Part shown: positions 2,103 to 7,823 of the stretch, piece by piece | Numbering within the stretch: the stretch's first letter is position 1 | How the letters are laid out: every line of letters starts with the position of its first letter | DNA from: an uncultured Candidatus Saccharibacteria bacterium | GTDB taxonomy: Bacteria > Patescibacteriota > Minisyncoccia > Phycocordibacterales > UBA6065 | NCBI GenBank assembly: GCA_964368565.1 | Contig: CAYJAC010000001.1 | Location: forward strand, 30,571 to 82,230 | Reading direction: 5' to 3' | DNA length: 51,660 nt | Translations under genes and position numbers: made by a program | Notes under the pieces: model-generated | Database searches by the model: none | Told to the model about the DNA's origin: nothing | Seen by the model: the letters and a program-made list of their open reading frames with translations, nothing else

Positions 2103-2227
2103 CGACTCGAATCGGCTCGTCAGCCGATTCGGTCGCGACCCCGCCTCGCCATTTTTCGAAGCGAAAAATATGGCTGCGGCTCGGACAAGCTAAAACCGCA
2201 GATAAATCTGCGGTTTTAGCTTGTCCC
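2103..2227. repeat. Three tandem hairpins at the left edge of the accessory block
   Basis: H1: gtcacgactcgaatcggct / agccgattcggtcgcgac, about 2103-2141. H2: gccatttttcg / cgaaaaatatggc, about 2150-2178. H3: perfect 19-bp stem ggacaagctaaaaccgcag / ctgcggttttagcttgtcc, 2184-2227. Confidence 0.5.
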
Positions 2228-2482
2228 CCGAAGCGGTCTCGGAAATTGTAAAGTGAGATGTCATAAGGATGCTTTGGATTATGTATGCGAGCGGCCGATG
2301 AGGCAAGTCGGTCGGGGTCAATCGGACAAAATATTGCAAAAGTGACAGAGGAACGGGGGTTTTGAGACTGTCACATTCATGTCTCATTCATTCCAAAATA
2401 TGGCTATATTCCGTGCAAACGAGACAAATGAGACACTCCTAGGACATGTTTTGACCGTGTCTCGTTTACAAGAAAAAACGGG

Positions 2483-2809
2483 CTATTCTTCCATTCTTTT
2501 TTTGTCCTTTTTCAAGCTCTCCTCATATTCCAGTAACTTTTCCGCAGGAGACAATCCGCCGAGCGGTTTATGCGGAAAATAGTTCCAAGCATCCGTTACA
2601 GTTTCGATGATATTACTCAGATTTTCCGGTTTGCCGTCATCAAACATGGCGATAGCCTTTTGCATGTCATCGCTGTCTTCCTCGTTGTAGATGACTTCTT
2701 TGACATCATCGAGCGTAAAGTCGCTGTCCGTTTCGTCGAGCAGCTCGTTAATATCCGCCTCGATTTTCATGCGGCGTTCCTTGATTTCTGATATTGATTG
2801 AGGATGCAT
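2483..2809 (-). CDS. Small acidic hypothetical protein encoded 6 nt downstream of the DGR RT (candidate DGR accessory gene)
   Basis: 108-aa ORF whose ATG (2807-2809) is 6 nt after the RT stop, on the same strand. It is Asp/Glu-rich, and the C-terminal 'WNYFPHKPLGGLSPAE' resembles the C-terminal motif of rve-type integrases (weak). Confidence 0.5.
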   Translation of the reverse strand: MHPQSISEIKERRMKIEADINELLDETDSDFTLDDVKEVIYNEEDSDDMQKAIAMFDDGKPENLSNIIETVTDAWNYFPHKPLGGLSPAEKLLEYEESLKKDKKRMEE

Positions 2810-2815
2810 GCAAGG

Positions 2816-3829
2816 TTATTTTAACATAACTATTTCTCTGATTTTCTCCGCGAGCTTATATGAATTTCCATGGTTGATAAGACCAAGATAGGACTGGACA
2901 GATTGCGACTTTTCCTTATTTCGTAATACGCCGTTCATCATCCTCTTTCTCGTCGTTGTTCGGAGTACTCGGTGATCGGGAAAATGTACCCAGCCCAAAA
3001 AATCCACACCTGAAGCGAATGTCTTTATGAATACCTTGTCGGGATGTAAAGAGAGTTTTAACCTTTCTTTGAGAAAACCTGATATCTGAGAAATAAGAGC
3101 CTCGACAGATGCCTTATCCGGTAAAAGAATCGCAAAGTCGTCCGCGTACCGAATATAATATTTCGTCTTCAGTCTATGTTTAGCGAATTGATCGAACTCG
3201 TTCATGTATATATTCACGAGCAGTTGCGAAGTAAGATTGCCGAGCGGCAAGCCGATGCCGAATTTTGTCGAGTAAAAACTTCCACTTATTTCGTATAGAA
3301 GTCCCATAATGTCAGGGTCAGGAATATATCCCTCAAGGATATGAAAGAGCGTCTGTTGGTCTATCGACGCAAAGAATTTCCGTATATCGCATTTCAAAAC
3401 CCACGCTGTCTTTGTCCTATTCTTTGAAACCTTATATCCAAATGCGCGGAATCGTCGTATCGCCCGATGCGATCCCTTCCTCATCCGGCAGGAGTATGAA
3501 TCAGTGATAAAAGTCCGGTCGAAAAATGGGTAGAGTTTTCTATAGAGCGTGTGATGTAAGAGTCTATCCCGTACACTTGCCTTGTGGATATCGCGCGGTT
3601 TCGGATCGTTTATTTTAAAAGCCTCATACGAAGCGTGCCTGTATGATTTAGCAGCGAGGTCTTCGTGGAGAGATATAACGTTCCTCATCAGATCCCGCTC
3701 AAATTCAAGTACGTCTTTCTTCTTGCGTTTACCTGTCCTGAATTCTTTCCAGGCTAACAGAAGATTTTCTAGAGAGATGATATCCTTGTAGGCATGAACA
3801 CATTGAATACGACCCGAACTTTGAGGCAA
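2816..3829 (-). CDS. Diversity-generating retroelement reverse transcriptase
   Basis: 337 aa. It has 'DPKPRDIHKASVRDRLLHH', a DGR-type motif 4 'LGNLTSQ' (I/LGxxxSQ) and the catalytic 'YADD'. It lacks group II maturase/En domains, and a TR/VR pair is adjacent. The predicted start is TTG, so the exact start is uncertain. Confidence 0.9.
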   Translation of the reverse strand: MPQSSGRIQCVHAYKDIISLENLLLAWKEFRTGKRKKKDVLEFERDLMRNVISLHEDLAAKSYRHASYEAFKINDPKPRDIHKASVRDRLLHHTLYRKLYPFFDRTFITDSYSCRMRKGSHRAIRRFRAFGYKVSKNRTKTAWVLKCDIRKFFASIDQQTLFHILEGYIPDPDIMGLLYEISGSFYSTKFGIGLPLGNLTSQLLVNIYMNEFDQFAKHRLKTKYYIRYADDFAILLPDKASVEALISQISGFLKERLKLSLHPDKVFIKTFASGVDFLGWVHFPDHRVLRTTTRKRMMNGVLRNKEKSQSVQSYLGLINHGNSYKLAEKIREIVMLK

Positions 3830-3830
3830 G

Positions 3831-3840
3831 CCCCCCCCCC
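3831..3840. repeat. C10 (G10 on the minus strand) homopolymer between the divergent RT and avd starts
   Basis: Read directly: 'ggcaag cccccccccc aacgg'. It occupies half of the 20-bp gap between 3829 and 3850. Confidence 0.9.
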
Positions 3841-3849
3841 AACGGAATT

Positions 3850-4212
3850 TTGCCCGTTATACACAAGATCAAACAGGCTTATTTGCTGTGGCATGGATTT
3901 TGTAGCGAGCTGCCGAAACAAGACAGATATTCGTTGGGTTTTCGCATAGATTCGTTGTTCGTGGAAGCAATCGAGGCCATCGCTGCCGCCAGTTTCTTGT
4001 CGCCCCAAGAAAAGCATCCGTACGTTCGCCTCGCCATACGCAAGCTCGACGCGCTCAAGGTACTGCTCATGATTCTTTGGGAGACAAAATCGCTCGACGA
4101 CAAGAAGTATATCGCATTATCGGTAAGCCTCGATGAAATCGGCAGAAATTTGGGCGGTTGGAGCGGGCAACTGACCAAACAAAACTCCCCAGCCAAAGCC
4201 GAGGAGAAATGA
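3850..4212 (+). CDS. avd: Avd-like four-helix-bundle protein (23S rRNA intervening-sequence protein family), DGR accessory variability determinant
   Basis: 120 aa. 'ELPKQDRYSLGFRIDSL...EAI..A' and the C-terminal 'EIGRNLGGW' are typical of the family. It lies next to RT and TR, but on the opposite strand. The start is TTG. Confidence 0.75.
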   Translation: MPVIHKIKQAYLLWHGFCSELPKQDRYSLGFRIDSLFVEAIEAIAAASFLSPQEKHPYVRLAIRKLDALKVLLMILWETKSLDDKKYIALSVSLDEIGRNLGGWSGQLTKQNSPAKAEEK

Positions 4213-4217
4213 GCGAG

Positions 4218-4342
4218 TTGCGTGACGGAGAGCCGGGTTGTTGCCATTCCAGTCGTTGTCCAACCAGTTCCAGTTGAGGACAACCTTGCCGCCGTTCTCG
4301 TAGAGATACGGGACGTTGAGGTTGCCGTCGCGGTTCTGCACG
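4218..4342 (-). repeat. DGR template repeat (TR)
   Basis: 125 bp matching 4678-4802 at a constant offset of 460. It is the adenine-rich copy (32 coding-strand A; reading frame rich in AAC/AAT Asn codons: 'NLNVPYLYENGGKVVLNWNWLDNDWNGNN'). Confidence 0.9.
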
Positions 4343-4594
4343 TTATGTGCGCGATGCCTTCCATGCCACCACCCCTTGAATGCTCTCAGGGCTGAATCGT
4401 ATTCGGCATCATAATGCCTTAGCATTGCGCACCAAGTAGCTTCATTTTTGAAGTGTCTGCATATGCCCTCCGTCCGAAACCGTGGCCGCAGACGCTCTCA
4501 GCATATGGATACTAGTTTCGGCCGCGGGAAGCCGTAACCGCCCGCAGATTCGCCTACTACCGGAGTCATCATATCAAATTTCACGTAAAAATTT

Positions 4595-4625
4595 AGCCCG
4601 GACATCGCTTGCGCGACGCCGGGCT
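4595..4625 (-). promoter_or_regulatory. GC-rich hairpin with a GCAA (GNRA) loop downstream of VR
   Basis: The stem is agcccgg / ccgggct (7 bp) plus an inner tcgc / gcga. The loop is ttgc on the plus strand, which reads GCAA on the coding strand. It lies 52 nt 3' of the VR end. Confidence 0.45.
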
Positions 4626-4672
4626 AAGAACTAAGTACAAAGAGCTAATGCTCAGTGTCTTAGGTATGAGAA

Positions 4673-5314
4673 CTAACTTGCGTGACGGAGAGCCGGGTAG
4701 AAGCCATCCCAGTCGCGGTCCAACCAGCCCCAGTCGAGGACAACCTCGCCGCCGTCCTCGTCGAGAAACGGGACGCTGAGGTCGCCGCCGCGGCTCTGCA
4801 CGACCGAAGCCCAACCGAAAGGCACTTTGCCCTTGAGGTATTTCCGGAAAAAGACGATTCCTTTCTTCTGGATTTCCTCTAGGTCGCGCAGTCCGAGACA
4901 GGTCTTGAGAAGTTTGTTGTCCTCCTCCTTGAGCTTGGCATAGACCCTGTTGCCCGTGGTCCAGTTGCCGTTCTTCTGGCCTTCGTGGAGCCACTGATCG
5001 ATTGAGCTCGCGTCGTATTCGGTCGGGCCAACATTCTCCAGTTCGGGATGAATGACTTTCTTCATCCAATCTGGGTAGATCGGCTTGACCGAGCGATCGA
5101 CACGAATGATCGAGTCGATCATGGGTTCCGGCTCAGGGATGGAAACGGGTTTAACCTTGACGGTCAACTCCGCCTCGCCCCGTGCGAGCAGGATGACTGA
5201 TTTGAGGTTCTCTCCGGTCGAGAGCCAGTCCAGGTCGGACGTGATTCCATCATTGCGCTGAAACGCAAACTCGAGCTTTTGGCCGGCGCCCTGACTCATT
5301 GCGAACGTATTCAT
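4673..5314 (-). CDS. DGR target (variable) protein; the C-terminal 41 codons are the VR
   Basis: Intact 213-aa ORF with no obvious signal peptide or TM segment. It ends '...VQSRGGDLSVPFLDEDGGEVVLDWGWLDRDWDGFYPALRHAS'. Confidence 0.85.
   Translation of the reverse strand: MNTFAMSQGAGQKLEFAFQRNDGITSDLDWLSTGENLKSVILLARGEAELTVKVKPVSIPEPEPMIDSIIRVDRSVKPIYPDWMKKVIHPELENVGPTEYDASSIDQWLHEGQKNGNWTTGNRVYAKLKEEDNKLLKTCLGLRDLEEIQKKGIVFFRKYLKGKVPFGWASVVQSRGGDLSVPFLDEDGGEVVLDWGWLDRDWDGFYPALRHAS
4678..4802 (-). repeat. DGR variable repeat (VR)
   Basis: There are 17 mismatches to TR. Sixteen fall where TR has a coding-strand A, none at G or C, and one at a T (4762 vs 4302). Confidence 0.9.
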
Positions 5315-5607
5315 GGTATTTTACTTTCCCTAATATGAGCGAGCTCCGTCGGAGCATGCTCGATTGGTTATGCTTGAATACCGGAGTGGTAGTCATAGCC
5401 AGGAAGCGCCGAAAATCAGCACCTTTTGGCTATGACTGCCCGCAAGTTGTATCAATGAGCTTACGTAAATATTATATACCCTAAAACAACATCTGTCAAG
5501 GGTGTTTGCGGTACAATTTAGTGGCCTAAAACATGGCTATTTAGAAAAATAGCTTACCAACACCTCCCTCCTTGACTCCCTAGAGGGTCTGCGTCATCCC
5601 TGTATGT

Positions 5608-6930
5608 ATGAACAACAATACGATACAAGCGCCTTTGGGAACTCCGGCCAAAATAGTAGTCCCAGTAAAGATGAAATACTGCCTGTACGCGAGGAAATCA
5701 ACGGAATCGGAGGAACAGCAAGTGCTCTCCATCGACTCGCAGATCAAGGAAATGCTCCGCCTGGCCGAGAGCGAAAAACTCGACATAACGGAGATAAAGA
5801 AAGAGTCACATTCTGCCAAGGAGACTGGGCAGAGGCCAGTATTCAATAAGATAGTCGAAGAGATAAAATCAGGAAAGTTCAACGGCATACTCACATGGGC
5901 ACCAGACCGCATATCGAGAAATGCGGGTGATCTTGGCAGAATCGTCGACCTCATGGACGTGGGTAAGCTCATAGAAATCAGGACGTACGGGTAAAGATTT
6001 ACCGATAATCCTAATGAGAAGTTTCTCCTCATGATTCTTGGTTCTCAGGCCAAGCTCGAAAACGATAATCGTCGTATCAATGTGAAGCGAGGCCTCCGAG
6101 TCAGAGTCGAGATGGGCCTCTAGCCATGCGTAGCGCCAACAGGATACATTAACTCAAAGAATAAGGATGAATGCTGTCAGATTAAGATAGACCCCAAGAG
6201 AGGGCCGATAATTCAACAAATATTCCATAAGGTGGCATACGGCAGATACAGCGGTAGGAAAATCTACTCATGGCTCAAAGATGATATACATTTCAAATCG
6301 AGATATGAGAAACCCCTCACCCTTTCTAATGTATACCTCATACTCCGCAACCATTTCTACTACGGTACGTTCGAATACCCACGAAGAAGTGGTAATTGGT
6401 ATCAGGGCAAACACGAGCCACTCATAACTAAAGAGGTTTTCGATAAAGTACAGGAGAGCATAAGCCAGCACATAATTCGGGTGGAGAGCAAAGAATTTGC
6501 CTTCACCAAACTCATGACCTGCGGCCTCTGTGGTTCAGGCATAACAGCTGATGAGAAGTTTAAGAAGCAGAAAAACGGCAATATCCATCGATATGTGTAT
6601 TACAGTTGCACCAAACACAATGACAAGGCATGCACGGGTGGCTATATATCCGAAGAAGCTCTCATAGAACAGCTTGCTGCCGTGGCCGACACAATCGACC
6701 TCAATGAGATCGGTATGAAAGAGAAAATCAAAACGGAAATCGAACGGAACAAGAAATTCCAGTCAGCGATGCTCGGCGTGAAAACCAAAGCGGTTAAAGT
6801 TGAAGATATCGATATACGAAATTACGCAAAGTATGTTTTACGGGAAGGAGCGATGGTGGAAAAACGGGAGCTATTGGGGTGCTTGAAAAGCAAAATCCTG
6901 CTTGCAAACAAAAAGATTAGTCTCACCTAA
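5608..6930 (+). pseudogene. Large serine recombinase (resolvase domain + recombinase domain + zinc ribbon) interrupted by two in-frame stop codons
   Basis: ORFs 5608-5994 and 6232-6930 are in the same frame. The connecting segment translates as recombinase sequence ('RFTDNPNEKFLLMILGSQAKLENDNRRINVKRGLRVRVEMGL*PCVAPTGY'), with TAA at 5992-5994 and TAG at 6121-6123. The catalytic 'YARKSTESEEQ' and zinc-ribbon 'CGLCGS...YYSCTKH' are present. Confidence 0.8.
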
Positions 6931-7311
6931 CTATTTTGCCTCTACGAATTTCTGTGCAAGCTCCTTAATAAGGTGCTCGTACTGATAATCGTATTTACCA
7001 CCATTACCTTGCCAACCCAAGTGGTCCCTCCTAAAGATGCCTTGTAGGAGGATTGTGTCTTCTTCGAGATCAATGATGAGCACTACGCGGAAACCGCCCG
7101 ACTTGCCCTGCTGACGAGCCTTATCTGGCAGTCGAGTAACCCAACATTCAAAGCTCCCGTTCTTGAATATGTTCGTCTGAACATTATGAGGTAACGGAAT
7201 ATTCCGAAACTCCTGAAGAGCCTTCTCGTGGAATTTATAGTTGCTGTCCTCCACATCTTCCTTTTTCCACCACTTATCAAAACTTTCTGTTCGTTGAATC
7301 TTCCAAGCCAT
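6931..7311 (-). CDS. RelE/HigB-superfamily-like toxin
   Basis: 126 aa. 'GKSGGFRVVLIIDLEEDTILLQGIFRRD' resembles the GKSGGxRvi...K core of HigB/RelE-like toxins. It sits 11 nt downstream of the Panacea-domain gene. Confidence 0.55.
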   Translation of the reverse strand: MAWKIQRTESFDKWWKKEDVEDSNYKFHEKALQEFRNIPLPHNVQTNIFKNGSFECWVTRLPDKARQQGKSGGFRVVLIIDLEEDTILLQGIFRRDHLGWQGNGGKYDYQYEHLIKELAQKFVEAK

Positions 7312-7322
7312 GAGGGACAGAG

Positions 7323-7823
7323 TTAGGCCTGAACAGGATTCTTTGAAAAGAATTCGATGTCGTCAGCGTTCTTATAATCGAGAGGTTTGCTTACCTCCGA
7401 AAACACCCATGGTGCTTCGCTGTGCGTCTGTGCAATCATTTCATCAGTACTCCAGTTTTTAAATGTCGTACAGAGATAAGAAAGAAGACTCTTTTCATAA
7501 TCATCAAAAACAGCAACGTTCGACTCTTTAAGTGCCTGATAGCGATTTCGCTTACCAAATTTTGCACTATCGTCTTCAGATTGGGTGATTAGTTTATCTT
7601 TTTCGGCAACCTTAATAATCACATCCTGTAGTTCGGATGCAAATGGGCCCATAGGAAGATGTTTGTATACCTCACCAGTCACATTCTGCTTGCGGTCGCG
7701 ATACGAGATGAAATCGAGGTAGTAGAAAAGCTTGTTGAGCTTGGTAATGCCAAGCTTTTCATTGCCGCAATGGGAAATGAAGTATAGGAGAGCGTTTATG
7801 TACTTTTCTTTATTAATGGCCAT
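7323..7823 (-). CDS. Panacea (DUF4065, SocA-like) domain antitoxin
   Basis: 166 aa. 'GITKLNKLFYYLDFISY...HLPMGPF' matches the KLxKLxY...GP signature of DUF4065. Confidence 0.7.
   Translation of the reverse strand: MAINKEKYINALLYFISHCGNEKLGITKLNKLFYYLDFISYRDRKQNVTGEVYKHLPMGPFASELQDVIIKVAEKDKLITQSEDDSAKFGKRNRYQALKESNVAVFDDYEKSLLSYLCTTFKNWSTDEMIAQTHSEAPWVFSEVSKPLDYKNADDIEFFSKNPVQA

What the first reader, a model, noticed from the sequence alone, without database searches (positions are those of the whole stretch)
3829..4342. Inverted avd: the accessory gene lies antisense between TR and RT
The mismatch polarity shows that the TR RNA must be the minus-strand transcript, the same strand as the RT and the target. 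The Avd-like ORF (3850-4212) is on the plus strand. It ends 6 nt from the TR boundary (tail-to-tail) and starts 20 nt from the RT start (head-to-head).

In the canonical arrangement (target-avd-TR-RT, all co-directional), the TR-to-RT spacer RNA is part of the functional template/primer RNA. Here any TR transcript that reaches the RT would carry about 360 nt of antisense avd. The alternative is that TR RNA and RT mRNA are separate transcripts. Either way, expression of avd and production of TR-RT RNA would collide, which is potential built-in antisense regulation.

Both divergent starts are TTG and leave no room for promoters between them. The promoters must therefore lie inside the neighbouring coding sequences.
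Basis: partly seen in the sequence, partly recalled or inferred. Interest (0 to 1): 0.7.

Follow-up and report, generated by a model that had tools for sequence, protein, structure and literature searches.

The report
Known inverted-avd DGR with repeat switch
The backwards-facing accessory gene is real, but it is the normal, already catalogued layout of diversity-generating retroelements in Patescibacteria (CPR) bacteria. The unreported feature is a hypermutable simple repeat where avd and the reverse transcriptase gene meet, which probably switches avd on and off.

Summary
The RT is at 2816-3829 (-), an Avd-type four-helix-bundle ORF at 3850-4212 (+), the TR at 4218-4342 and the VR at 4678-4802. 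Sixteen of 17 TR/VR mismatches fall at minus-strand TR adenines.

The layout is not new. Wu et al. 2018 call it architecture B3, TR-(avd)-RT, and report it for 90% of CPR DGRs. I found RT divergent from avd in 76 of 80 related genome loci, and the TR abutting the avd stop in 133 of 162 loci.

The TR RNA appears to be its own unit of about 390 nt:
- a conserved extended -10 element;
- a roughly 219-nt structured leader with very strong covariation;
- the TR;
- a covarying hairpin plus U-tract lying inside the last 12 avd codons.

The TTG at 3850 is probably not the avd start. Relatives use an upstream ATG (3794 here) and read through a simple-sequence repeat (poly-C 3831-3840). This repeat is present in about 90% of loci, its unit length is never a multiple of 3, and its length differs between otherwise identical contigs. 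Loci without the repeat are almost always in frame. I infer a phase-variable avd; I found no report of this.

The parts
5471..5499 (-). Sigma-70-type promoter upstream of the target gene (TTGACA-17-TATAAT, 12 of 12 matches)
   Evidence: This is a consensus match only. Its conservation in relatives was not tested.
4673..5314 (-). DGR target gene (213 aa), with no Pfam or NCBIfam family match
   Evidence: The VR lies at its 3' end, 3 nt before the stop codon.
4678..4802 (-). Variable repeat (VR)
   Evidence: 125 nt, 17 differences from the TR, 16 of them opposite TR adenines. The last ~20 nt are identical to the TR and GC-rich (IMH-like).
4587..4625 (-). GC-rich hairpin (stem 4595-4625) followed by AAATTTTT. 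Probably the target-gene terminator and/or the inverted repeat that some DGRs carry downstream of the VR.
   Evidence: -27.8 kcal/mol, z = -5.35. A hairpin plus T-run is conserved at this position in 121 relatives.
4568..4576 (-). Extended -10 promoter element TGATATGAT, proposed to drive the TR RNA
   Evidence: The consensus T8-TGnTATAAT is conserved at a fixed distance upstream of GGTAGTAGG in relatives. The function is inferred.
4343..4561 (-). Structured 5' leader of the TR RNA (~219 nt, 11 helices)
   Evidence: 70 pairs, 96.0% of cells paired against 84.2% in shuffles. 49 pairs carry compensatory changes. 607 double-change cells against 167 in shuffles (0 of 500 shuffles reach this). Slid controls stay at or below 50% paired. 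Several positions are dominated by G-U pairs, which exist only on the minus-strand reading. No Rfam family matches.
4218..4342 (-). Template repeat (TR)
   Evidence: The TR abuts the avd stop in 133 of 162 related loci, and 2155 of 2280 TR/VR mismatches there are at TR adenines.
4175..4206 (-). Nine-bp tetraloop hairpin (4206-4185) plus the tail TTTTGTTTGG, inside avd codons 109-120. Terminator-like, and positionally equivalent to the Avd-binding stem-loop of the Bordetella DGR RNA.
   Evidence: - flags it as terminator-like.
- -17 kcal/mol on the minus strand against -6.9 on the plus strand.
- 93.2% of cells paired against 81.9% in shuffles, and 62 double-change cells against 17 (0 of 500).
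- About 64 G-U cells on the minus-strand reading against about 7 C-A cells.
- synonymous sites are frozen in codons 110-112, 119 and 120 (p = 3.5e-4).
3850..4212 (+). Avd core ORF (four-helix bundle)
3794..3849 (+). Probable true 5' end of avd. The ATG at 3794 lies inside the RT coding sequence on the other strand and reads through the poly-C tract. With 10 C it is out of frame with the core in this window; 8 or 11 C would restore the frame.
   Evidence: -: P0001, 138 aa, starts at this ATG.
- contig L081 is identical to the window over 3665-4327 except that it has 8 C.
- codon 1 is TTG 33 / TTA 25 / CTG 6 across relatives, like any Leu codon.
- 12 of 14 repeat-less loci have the ATG in frame.
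3831..3840 (.). Poly-C(10) simple-sequence repeat at the avd/RT junction. It lies in the avd 5' coding extension and, on the other strand, in the RT 5' leader just upstream of the RT start.
   Evidence: - It is the only C/G run of 7 or more in the 51.6-kb window, and 60 of 70 such runs in 667 kb of related loci are at this spot.
- A repeat is present in 134 of 150 loci. Unit sizes are 1 (110), 2 (5), 4 (17) and 7 (2), never 3, 6 or 9.
- Length differs between contigs with identical flanks.
2816..3829 (-). DGR reverse transcriptase (337 aa)
   Evidence: Pfam RVT_1, E = 8e-20. The translation contains LGNLTSQ and YADD. It is 57-67% identical to the RT that lies divergent from avd in 76 of 80 genome loci.

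Best explanation
This is a chromosomal diversity-generating retroelement of the Patescibacteria (CPR) type, with the already described B3 layout: target/VR - TR - (avd) - RT. Its organisation is as follows.

1. The target gene (5314-4673, minus strand) has its own promoter. It ends in a strong hairpin plus T-run.

2. The TR RNA is a separate short transcription unit on the minus strand. An extended -10 element (4576-4568) is followed by a ~219-nt highly structured leader (4561-4343), then the TR (4342-4218). Twelve nt later comes a 9-bp tetraloop hairpin followed by UUUUGUUU (4206-4175). That hairpin is written on the antisense strand of the last 12 avd codons. It corresponds in position and shape to the Avd-binding stem-loop found just 3' of the TR in the Bordetella DGR RNA. 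Together with the U-tract, it most likely also ends the transcript. The functional RNA would therefore overlap avd by only ~35 nt. The RT-binding structured RNA that canonical DGRs carry between TR and RT has in effect been moved to the 5' side of the TR.

3. avd (plus strand) and RT (minus strand) are expressed divergently, and their 5' ends overlap. avd translation starts at the ATG at 3794, inside the RT coding sequence, not at the TTG at 3850. It must read through a hypermutable simple-sequence repeat (poly-C 3831-3840). Repeat length sets the reading frame, so slipped-strand changes switch Avd synthesis on and off in a heritable, reversible way. Because Avd is required for cDNA synthesis in the studied DGR, the same changes would switch mutagenic retrohoming. 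In this window (10 C) the frame is off, or limited to weak initiation at the TTG. In a sister contig with 8 C it is on.

Shown here: the anatomy, the conservation, the RNA covariation, the repeat polymorphism and the frame statistics.

Inferred: the promoter and terminator functions, Avd binding by the hairpin, the translational switch and its effect on DGR activity.
For: Identity and layout:
- establish RT, Avd, TR and VR.
- Wu et al. [quoted passage not shown]
- RT lies divergent from avd in 76 of 80 genome loci.
- The TR abuts the avd stop in 133 of 162 loci. The VR lies 303-615 nt (median 347) beyond it. 94.5% of 2280 mismatches are at TR adenines.

Separate TR RNA unit:
- The VR-to-TR spacer carries a conserved hairpin plus T8, then TGnTATAAT, then GGTAGTAGG.
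- The leader fold has 70 pairs. 96% of cells are paired against 84% in shuffles. 49 pairs carry compensatory changes, with 607 double-change cells against 167 (0 of 500 shuffles). Slid controls stay at or below 50%.
- The 3' hairpin is terminator-like. It shows covariation and strand asymmetry: -17 against -6.9 kcal/mol, and many G-U pairs on the minus-strand reading only.
- Synonymous sites are frozen only in codons 110-112, 119 and 120, with a minor-codon fraction of 5% or less. The 34 other two-fold columns range from 16.5 to 50% (p = 3.5e-4). No such constraint appears further into avd.
- Handa et al. (bioRxiv 10.1101/2023.10.23.563531) place the Bordetella Avd-binding stem-loop at Sp 3-33. 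They report such stem-loops, mostly 9 bp with a tetraloop, just downstream of the TR in 207 of 278 DGRs, CPR included.

Repeat switch:
- A repeat is present at the same spot in 134 of 150 loci. Unit sizes are 1, 2, 4 and 7, never a multiple of 3.
- 60 of 70 C/G runs of 7 or more in 667 kb lie there.
- Contigs with 100% identical flanks differ in tract length: window 10 C against L081 8 C; 11 against 8; 9 against 10; 10 against 8. (CA)n tracts of 33, 31 and 11 nt occur between near-identical flanks.
- Codon 1 of the 'ORF' is TTG 33 / TTA 25 / CTG 6, ordinary Leu usage, and [IL]LPVL is conserved with synonymous variation.
- 28 of 84 out-of-frame loci have no canonical start in codons 1-6.
- 12 of 14 repeat-less loci have the upstream ATG in frame (p = 8e-5 against 1/3). 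Among repeat-bearing loci 40 of 124 are in frame, which equals chance (Fisher p = 1.5e-4).
Against: - There are no expression data of any kind. Promoter, terminator and start codon are all inferred from conservation.
- The hairpin could be only an Avd-binding element, with transcription continuing to RT. U-tract terminators are rarely 100% efficient, and I found no conserved promoter for RT or avd. Read-through may therefore be how RT is expressed.
- The length differences rest on a handful of contig pairs from short-read assemblies, where homopolymer errors occur.
- An in-frame fraction equal to chance is also what a non-coding repeat would give. The coding reading rests mainly on the 12-of-14 result and on codon-1 usage.
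- Long C runs can also cause transcriptional slippage. That would blur an on/off switch into a constitutive low level.
- TTG at codon 1 is somewhat more common in out-of-frame loci (42 of 84 against 13 of 40). Internal initiation may therefore rescue some expression.
- The Avd HMM scores are below the curated cut-offs.
Confidence: 0.7

Rival explanations
1. TR and RT are co-transcribed as in canonical DGRs, so the functional RNA carries about 360 nt of antisense avd. Convergent or overlapping transcription of avd and TR-RT gives built-in antisense regulation.
For: Canonical DGRs use the TR-to-RT spacer as part of the RNA. No conserved sigma-70-like RT promoter was found between the hairpin and the RT start, so terminator read-through is a possible source of RT mRNA. 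avd has no terminator-like site on its own strand before it enters the TR, so some sense/antisense overlap is likely.
Against: A conserved, covarying hairpin plus U-tract lies 12 nt after the TR. Nucleotide-level constraint inside avd stops at codon 109, so no further RNA element is embedded in antisense avd. The large structured RNA domain lies 5' of the TR behind its own conserved extended -10 element.
Confidence: 0.2
2. The repeat is not a translational switch for avd. Avd starts at TTG 3850 or another downstream codon. The repeat lies in non-coding DNA and tunes transcription or translation of RT or avd (promoter or leader length, Shine-Dalgarno-like G-run, reiterative transcription). Alternatively, it is neutral hypermutable DNA.
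For: The repeat lies 1-15 nt upstream of the RT start on the RT strand. The in-frame fraction among repeat-bearing loci is exactly chance, 32%. TTG is the commonest codon 1. Half of the out-of-frame loci have it (42 of 84) against a third of the in-frame loci (13 of 40).
Against: Codon 1 is TTA or CTN in about 45% of loci, and 28 of 84 out-of-frame loci have no canonical start in codons 1-6. [IL]LPVL is conserved as amino acids with synonymous changes. Repeat-less loci are in frame with the upstream ATG in 12 of 14 cases (p = 8e-5). Repeat units are never multiples of three. A neutral repeat would not be kept at one spot in about 90% of loci across many Patescibacteria classes, nor always as C or CA-rich units on the avd strand.
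Confidence: 0.25
3. The hairpin plus U-tract is only the Avd-binding stem-loop of the DGR RNA and not a terminator. The U-rich stretch is the priming or template-pairing strand, and the RNA extends further.
For: Handa et al. describe just such a stem-loop directly 3' of the TR. In Bordetella it is followed by a priming strand at Sp 47-56. TRs are AAC-rich and could pair with a UUUUGUUUU stretch.
Against: The U-tract directly abuts the stem, which is the classic terminator geometry. No constraint is seen beyond it. The two roles are not exclusive. My best explanation keeps Avd binding and adds termination.
Confidence: 0.3
4. The plus-strand ORF is a chance ORF or an unrelated four-helix protein, and the real Avd is elsewhere.
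For: The HMM scores are below the curated cut-offs.
Against: 1901 homologues were found, and the 120 listed all carry Pfam bAvd except one. They sit in the same position next to a DGR RT and TR in 76 of 80 and 133 of 162 loci. The predicted fold matches Bordetella Avd at TM 0.8-0.9.
Confidence: 0.02

Closest known systems
DGR cassette architecture B3, TR-(avd)-RT (Wu et al. 2018, Nucleic Acids Res 46:11, PMC5758913)
   Same: Same order and orientation of TR, avd and RT. [quoted passage not shown] There is a single target gene upstream with the VR at its 3' end.
   Different: Nothing differs in the layout. That survey, as far as I could read it, does not describe the repeat at the avd/RT junction, the structured leader 5' of the TR, or the hairpin embedded in the avd 3' end.
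Bordetella phage BPP-1 DGR (mtd-avd-TR-brt) and its RNP (Handa et al., PMC6182149; bioRxiv 10.1101/2023.10.23.563531; PDB 4dwl, 8ub7)
   Same: RT with the LGxxxSQ and YxDD motifs. Avd with the same fold (TM 0.8-0.9). Adenine-specific TR-to-VR differences. An identical GC-rich 3' end of TR and VR. A ~9-11 bp tetraloop stem-loop immediately 3' of the TR.
   Different: avd is inverted and placed between TR and RT. The RNA 3' of the TR is only about 45 nt long and ends in a U-tract. In Bordetella the spacer is 140 nt and holds the priming strand, the thumb ring and the bRT-binding stem-loop. Here a ~219-nt structured domain lies 5' of the TR. The priming site is unknown.
Simple-sequence-repeat contingency loci (phase variation in Neisseria, Haemophilus, Campylobacter; e.g. 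PMC5084427, PMC8355987, PMC11868660)
   Same: Homopolymer or 2-, 4- or 7-nt repeats in the 5' part of a reading frame. Unit length is not divisible by three. Length is polymorphic between otherwise identical sequences. Frames are scattered among isolates.
   Different: The controlled gene is not a surface or restriction-modification gene. It is the accessory factor of a targeted hypermutation machine. The hosts are environmental Patescibacteria. The same repeat also lies in the 5' leader of the divergent RT gene. No switching rate or expression data exist.
Divergent phase-variable promoters sharing one repeat (recalled from memory: Haemophilus influenzae hifA/hifB TA repeats; Bordetella fim poly-C)
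   Same: One repeat lies between two divergently expressed genes.
   Different: In those systems the repeat alters -10/-35 spacing. Here the evidence points to a reading-frame effect on one gene. This comparison rests on memory and was not checked here.

Membership tests
Diversity-generating retroelement (DGR) | Reverse transcriptase of the DGR type (RVT_1 domain with the (I/L)GxxxSQ motif and YxDD) | tested here: met
   Pfam RVT_1, E = 8e-20. LGNLTSQ and YADD were read in the translation. No DGR-specific RT profile was available.
Diversity-generating retroelement (DGR) | TR/VR repeat pair whose differences fall at TR adenines, with the VR inside a coding sequence | tested here: met
   16 of 17 differences are at TR A. 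The VR is at the 3' end of ORF 4673-5314. 31 of 32 TR adenines are at codon positions 1 or 2, and there are many AAC codons.
Diversity-generating retroelement (DGR) | Avd accessory protein (pentamer-forming four-helix bundle) | tested here: met
   NF033474, E = 5.8e-14; PF22296, E = 6e-8; both below the curated cut-offs. The AF2 four-helix bundle has pLDDT 92 and TM 0.81-0.90 to 4dwl. The oligomeric state was not tested.
Diversity-generating retroelement (DGR) | Mutagenic retrohoming actually occurs | not testable with these tools
   Only the footprint is visible (A-specific TR/VR differences).
Architecture B3 of Wu et al. 2018 | Core order TR-(avd)-RT, with avd on the opposite strand | tested here: met
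   The definition was read in PMC5758913, section 22.
Architecture B3 of Wu et al. 2018 | CPR/Patescibacteria host | tested here: met
   The closest Avd and RT loci are almost all from Patescibacteria MAGs. The taxonomy of the window itself was not determined independently.
SSR contingency locus (phase variation) | Repeat tract, with unit not divisible by three, inside the reading frame between the start codon and the functional protein | tested here: met
   Unit sizes are 1, 2, 4 and 7 only. An upstream ATG is open up to the tract in 71 of 73 loci. 12 of 14 repeat-less loci are in frame.
SSR contingency locus (phase variation) | Tract length polymorphic among otherwise identical genomes | tested here: met
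   Window against L081 and five further sets of contigs with identical or near-identical flanks. The numbers are small, and assembly error is not excluded.
SSR contingency locus (phase variation) | Reversible, high-frequency on/off change of the gene product | not testable with these tools
   No reads, cultures or expression data were available.
Intrinsic (Rho-independent) terminator | GC-rich stem-loop immediately followed by a U-tract on the transcribed strand | tested here: met
   9 pairs, 6 of them GC, loop of 4, tail TTTTGTTTGG.: -17 kcal/mol. The feature is conserved with covariation. Termination itself was not tested.
Avd-binding stem-loop of DGR RNA (Handa et al.) | Stem of about 9-11 bp capped by a tetraloop just downstream of the TR | tested here: met
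   The stem starts 12 nt after the TR and has 9 bp and a 4-nt loop. The description was read. Binding to Avd and flipped-out bases were not testable.

The most novel reading that the evidence does not exclude
In Patescibacteria DGRs, the accessory gene avd is a contingency locus. A hypermutable repeat, placed between its true ATG and the four-helix-bundle core and also in the leader of the divergent RT gene, stochastically and heritably turns targeted hypermutation on and off. Each population would therefore hold diversifying and 'locked' sub-lineages. Alongside this, the DGR RNA of this family is rearranged: a ~219-nt structured domain lies 5' of the TR, and only an Avd-binding hairpin/terminator lies 3' of it, written antisense in avd's own last codons. 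I found no report of either feature in the held literature or in Rfam. Paul et al. 2017, the main CPR DGR paper, could not be read.
Probability: 0.5. Interest if true: 0.8.

Novelty: new member of a known kind. Interest (0 to 1): 0.5.

Why it matters
The inverted avd by itself adds nothing new. It is the standard CPR layout, so it should not be reported as a discovery.

The locus matters for two side results.

First, how DGR activity is regulated in nature is largely unknown. A repeat that scrambles the avd frame gives a concrete, testable mechanism. Tract length in metagenomic reads can be compared with VR diversity in the same population.

Second, the strongly covarying leader 5' of the TR shows that this large DGR clade builds its RNP from a differently arranged RNA. 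So does the hairpin/U-tract written antisense in avd. Surveys that look only 3' of the TR will miss most of this RNA.

The repeat also explains why gene callers annotate these Avd proteins at anything from 83 to 142 aa.

Tried and rejected
- Exact-protein look-up of the window's RT found no record.
- A metagenome scan for the window's own tract flanks with a variable gap returned 0 hits, so no population series exists for this exact strain.
- Rfam at E <= 1 over 2400-5700 on both strands returned nothing.
- A PDB sequence-profile search with the Avd alignment returned nothing. The fold search was needed instead.
- A sigma-70-type promoter scan of 130 loci, for an RT promoter inside avd and an avd promoter inside RT, gave no positional peak.
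- A possible extended -10 for RT, overlapping avd codons -1 to 3 on the minus strand, is weak. Its hexamer is often CAAAAG or CAAAAT. I do not claim it.
- I considered that the conserved C-terminal peptide KQNSPxKxGEK alone explains conservation of the avd 3' end. I rejected this as sufficient, because synonymous sites are frozen and the stem covaries.
- I considered that the poly-C encodes a selected poly-proline. I rejected this because the run is pure C rather than mixed Pro codons, other loci carry CA, GCCA, CAAT or 7-mer units instead, and the frames are random.
- Conserved pairing between the U-tract and the TR 3' end (a priming duplex) could not be tested, because both partners are nearly invariant.
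- Paul et al. 2017 (PMC5436926) is not held.
Full report

Yes. The ORF list gives a 337-aa ORF on the minus strand (2816-3829) that matches Pfam RVT_1 (E = 8e-20). Its translation contains LGNLTSQ and YADD. A 120-aa ORF lies on the plus strand (3850-4212). Twenty bases separate the two first canonical start codons, both TTG.

The repeat finder gives one 125-nt direct repeat pair, 4218-4342 and 4678-4802, at 86% identity. Read on the minus strand, 16 of the 17 differences lie at adenines of the 4218-4342 copy. Thirty-one of its 32 adenines occupy codon positions 1 or 2 of the frame of ORF 4673-5314 (-), which ends 3 nt after the other copy. So 4218-4342 is the TR, 4678-4802 is the VR, and the template strand is the minus strand. 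The avd-like ORF ends 5 nt from the TR, tail to tail.

**2. Is the plus-strand ORF an Avd?**

Yes.
- It matches NCBIfam DivGenRetAVD over its full length (E = 5.8e-14) and Pfam bAvd (E = 6e-8). Both scores are below the curated cut-offs.
- It has 1901 homologues. The 120 listed all carry the precomputed bAvd domain except one, and nearly all come from Patescibacteria.
- An AlphaFold2 model built on 35 homologues is a confident four-helix bundle (pLDDT 92.4).
- Its best PDB matches are Xcc0516 (2gsc), Bordetella phage Avd (4dwl, TM 0.81-0.90) and the Avd chains of the DGR ribonucleoprotein (8ub7, 8ube).

**3. Is the arrangement unusual?**

No. Wu et al. 2018 (PMC5758913, section 22) classify DGR cassettes. 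They define architecture B3 as TR-(avd)-RT, with parentheses meaning the reverse strand. [quoted passage not shown]

I checked this independently. In 80 loci fetched from species-representative genomes with the Avd alignment, 76 carry an RT immediately upstream of avd and divergent from it. With 80 further metagenome loci, 133 of 162 loci have a TR abutting the avd stop with the same polarity. The VR lies 303-615 nt (median 347) further on, and 2155 of 2280 TR/VR mismatches are at TR adenines.

The window is an ordinary member of a known class.

**4. What happens to the TR RNA?**

Either the TR transcript drags about 360 nt of antisense avd to the RT, or TR RNA and RT mRNA are separate. The comparative data favour the second option, on three lines of evidence.

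(a) *A conserved hairpin and U-tract just after the TR.* On the minus strand, 12 nt after the TR, lies a 9-bp stem with a 4-nt loop, followed directly by TTTTGTTTGG (4206-4175). The scan flags it as terminator-like.
- It folds at -17 kcal/mol on the minus strand but only -6.9 on the plus strand.
- In 76 relatives the stem is kept with compensatory changes. 93.2% of cells are paired against 81.9% in shuffles. There are 62 double-change cells against 17 (0 of 500 shuffles), and slid controls stay at or below 67%.
- About 64 cells are G-U on the minus-strand reading, against about 7 that would be G-U on the plus strand. The folded molecule is therefore the TR-sense RNA.

(b) *The element lies inside avd codons 109-120 and leaves a footprint there.* Codons 110-112 (AAA CAA AAC, the complement of the U-tract) and 119-120 (GAG AAA, part of the stem) have a minor-codon fraction of 5% or less. 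The 34 other two-fold codon columns of the gene range from 16.5 to 50% (Mann-Whitney p = 3.5e-4). No comparable constraint is seen further into avd. No additional RNA element therefore seems to be embedded in antisense avd.

(c) *The VR-to-TR spacer is not filler.* Read on the minus strand, relatives share a GC hairpin plus T-run just after the target gene. In the window this is 4625-4595, at -27.8 kcal/mol. A conserved TGnTATAAT follows (TGATATGAT, 4576-4568 in the window). About 7 nt later comes GGTAGTAGG, which opens a conserved stretch reaching the TR.

An RNAalifold consensus of this ~219-nt leader has 70 pairs in 11 helices. On 60 sequences, 96.0% of cells are paired against 84.2% in shuffles. 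Forty-nine pairs carry compensatory changes, with 607 double-change cells against 167 (0 of 500). Every slid control is at or below 50%. Several positions are dominated by G-U, again fixing the strand. Rfam has nothing here.

From this I infer a self-contained TR RNA of about 390 nt, from about 4561 to about 4176. It overlaps avd by only ~35 nt.

**5. Comparison with the studied system**

In the Bordetella element, the 140-nt spacer 3' of the TR holds, in order: an Avd-binding stem-loop at Sp 3-33 (11 bp, tetraloop), the priming strand (Sp 47-56), a thumb ring and a bRT-binding stem-loop. Similar stem-loops (mostly 9 bp with a tetraloop) were predicted just downstream of the TR in 207 of 278 DGRs, CPR members included. 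That survey used 40 nt upstream and 100 nt downstream of the TR (Handa et al., bioRxiv 10.1101/2023.10.23.563531).

The window's hairpin fits that known Avd-binding element in place and shape. What differs is what follows: a U-tract and then unconstrained coding sequence. The large structured domain sits on the 5' side of the TR instead.

I therefore read the hairpin as doing double duty, as Avd-binding site and terminator. Only the shape and conservation are shown here. Where cDNA synthesis is primed in this family remains unknown.

**6. The start of avd and the repeat**

The 20-nt 'intergenic' gap holds a run of ten C (3831-3840), the only C/G run of 7 or more in the 51.6-kb window. This turned out to be the most interesting feature of the locus.

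*The repeat is conserved at this spot.*
- In 150 usable related loci, 134 carry a simple-sequence repeat at the same position. 110 are poly-C of 7-14 (mode 9-10). The rest are (CA)n, (GA)n, (CAAT)n, (CAAC)n, (GCCA)n, (ACGA)n and two 7-mers.
- Unit sizes are 1, 2, 4 and 7, and never 3, 6 or 9.
- Sixty of the 70 C/G runs of 7 or more in 667 kb of related loci are at this spot, always as C on the avd strand.

*Tract length varies between otherwise identical contigs.*
- The ENA contig L081 matches window 3665-4327 base for base, except that it has 8 C instead of 10.
- Further pairs with 100% identical flanks differ as 11 against 8, 9 against 10, and 10 against 8.
- (CA)n tracts of 33, 31 and 11 nt sit between 95-98% identical flanks.

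**7. Why I think the repeat lies inside the avd reading frame**

This is the same usage as at internal Leu positions.
- The residues [IL]-L-P-V-L around it are conserved with synonymous variation.
- Twenty-eight of 84 out-of-frame loci have no ATG, GTG or TTG in codons 1-6.
- An ATG lies 5-50 nt upstream of the repeat, with an open frame up to it, in 71 of 73 loci. In most loci it is the reverse complement of a conserved His codon near the RT N-terminus. In the window it is at 3794, so the two genes overlap head to head by 36 nt.
- Gene callers that see an in-frame tract call Avd from that ATG. One example is P0001, 138 aa and 99% identical to the window.
- The decisive test uses 138 distinct loci. 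Of the 14 that lack a repeat, 12 have the upstream ATG in frame with avd (binomial p = 8e-5 against 1/3). Of the 124 with a repeat, 40 (32%) are in frame, exactly the chance level (Fisher p = 1.5e-4).

Without a repeat the frame is kept. With a repeat it is scrambled. This is the signature of a translational contingency switch, and I infer that avd is phase-variable.

In the window (10 C) the ATG frame runs into a stop at 3949. Only weak initiation at the TTG at 3850 could make Avd. In L081 (8 C) the full 138-aa protein is encoded.

On the RT strand the repeat lies in the leader just upstream of the RT start. It is 1 nt upstream of the TTG in the window and about 13 nt upstream of an ATG in most relatives. 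It cannot shift the RT frame, but it might affect RT translation.

**8. What remains open**

- I found no conserved sigma-70-like promoter for RT or avd. RT could be fed in part by read-through of the hairpin.
- avd has no terminator-like site on its own strand before it enters the TR. Some antisense overlap with TR RNA is therefore possible. The proposed collision regulation is neither supported nor excluded.
- The tract-length differences come from short-read assemblies.
- Long C runs may also cause transcriptional slippage, which would soften an on/off switch.
- The literature searches that combined DGR or Avd terms with phase variation, homopolymers, simple repeats or frameshifts returned nothing relevant. 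The other DGR searches turned up no such report either. The main CPR DGR paper (Paul et al. 2017) is not in the held library, so priority cannot be settled here.

**9. Context**

The cassette sits among ordinary chromosomal genes: a SpoU methylase, DNA polymerase III delta and DNA polymerase I. It lies next to a large serine recombinase broken by two stop codons (5608-6930) and a Panacea-domain antitoxin gene. This suggests a decayed mobile element nearby.

**10. Verdict**

The finding as written is a correct observation of a known, common architecture, and on that basis alone it deserves a low score. The locus nevertheless carries two well-supported features that I could not find described. 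One is a hypermutable repeat controlling the avd reading frame. The other is a rearranged DGR RNA, with a 5' structured leader and a 3' hairpin/terminator antisense to avd. Together these raise the overall interest to moderate.

Noticed in passing
window 3831-3840; L001-L161, just upstream of the avd match: A simple-sequence repeat lies at the avd/RT junction: poly-C 7-14, or 2-, 4- or 7-nt units, never a multiple of 3. It is present in about 90% of related loci and differs in length between contigs with identical flanks. Loci without the repeat are in frame with an upstream ATG in 12 of 14 cases. It is a likely phase-variation switch on avd.
   Followed up: yes
window 4343-4561 (-): A ~219-nt conserved, strongly covarying structured RNA (11 helices, 70 pairs) lies directly 5' of the TR. 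It sits behind a conserved extended -10 element (4576-4568) and has no Rfam family.
   Followed up: yes
window 4175-4206 (-), inside avd codons 109-120: A covarying hairpin plus U-tract is written antisense in the avd 3' end. It freezes synonymous sites, and so part of the conserved C-terminal peptide KQNSPxKxGEK is shaped by an RNA element on the other strand.
   Followed up: yes
window 5608-6930 (+): A large serine recombinase (Resolvase N-terminal, Recombinase and zinc-ribbon domains) is interrupted by in-frame TAA (about 5992) and TAG (about 6121) codons. It is probably a pseudogene and a remnant of a mobile element beside the DGR.
   Followed up: partly
window 6931-7823 (-): A Panacea/SocA-like antitoxin domain gene (7323-7823) lies next to a 126-aa ORF with no family match (6931-7311). 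This may be a toxin-antitoxin pair.
   Followed up: no
window 2183-2226: A perfect 21-nt inverted repeat with a 2-nt spacer (GGACAAGCTAAAACCGCAGAT / ATCTGCGGTTTTAGCTTGTCC) lies downstream of the small ORF that follows RT. Its function is unknown.
   Followed up: no
window 4117-4425 (-): A 102-aa ORF runs through the TR and into antisense avd. It is most likely just the open TR frame and not a gene. It has no family match.
   Followed up: partly
L081 positions ~664 onward (aligned to window 4328 onward): The sister contig is identical to the window up to the middle of the TR and then switches to unrelated GC-rich sequence. This is probably an assembly chimera at the TR/VR repeat.
   Followed up: no
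L078 259-1332, 2046-2055, 3895-3904: This locus holds a second, distant RT (32% identity) and two more C10 runs besides the one at the avd junction. It may be a second retroelement with its own repeat.
   Followed up: no
protein clusters of P0058, P0035, P0031, P0007, P0063, P0056: Within clusters at 90% identity, Avd is annotated at lengths from 42 to 226 aa (mostly 83-142). This is consistent with gene callers falling back on internal starts when the repeat puts the true start out of frame.
   Followed up: partly
window 5471-5499 (-): A perfect TTGACA-17-TATAAT lies upstream of the target gene. The TR RNA, by contrast, appears to use an extended -10 element without a -35.
   Followed up: no
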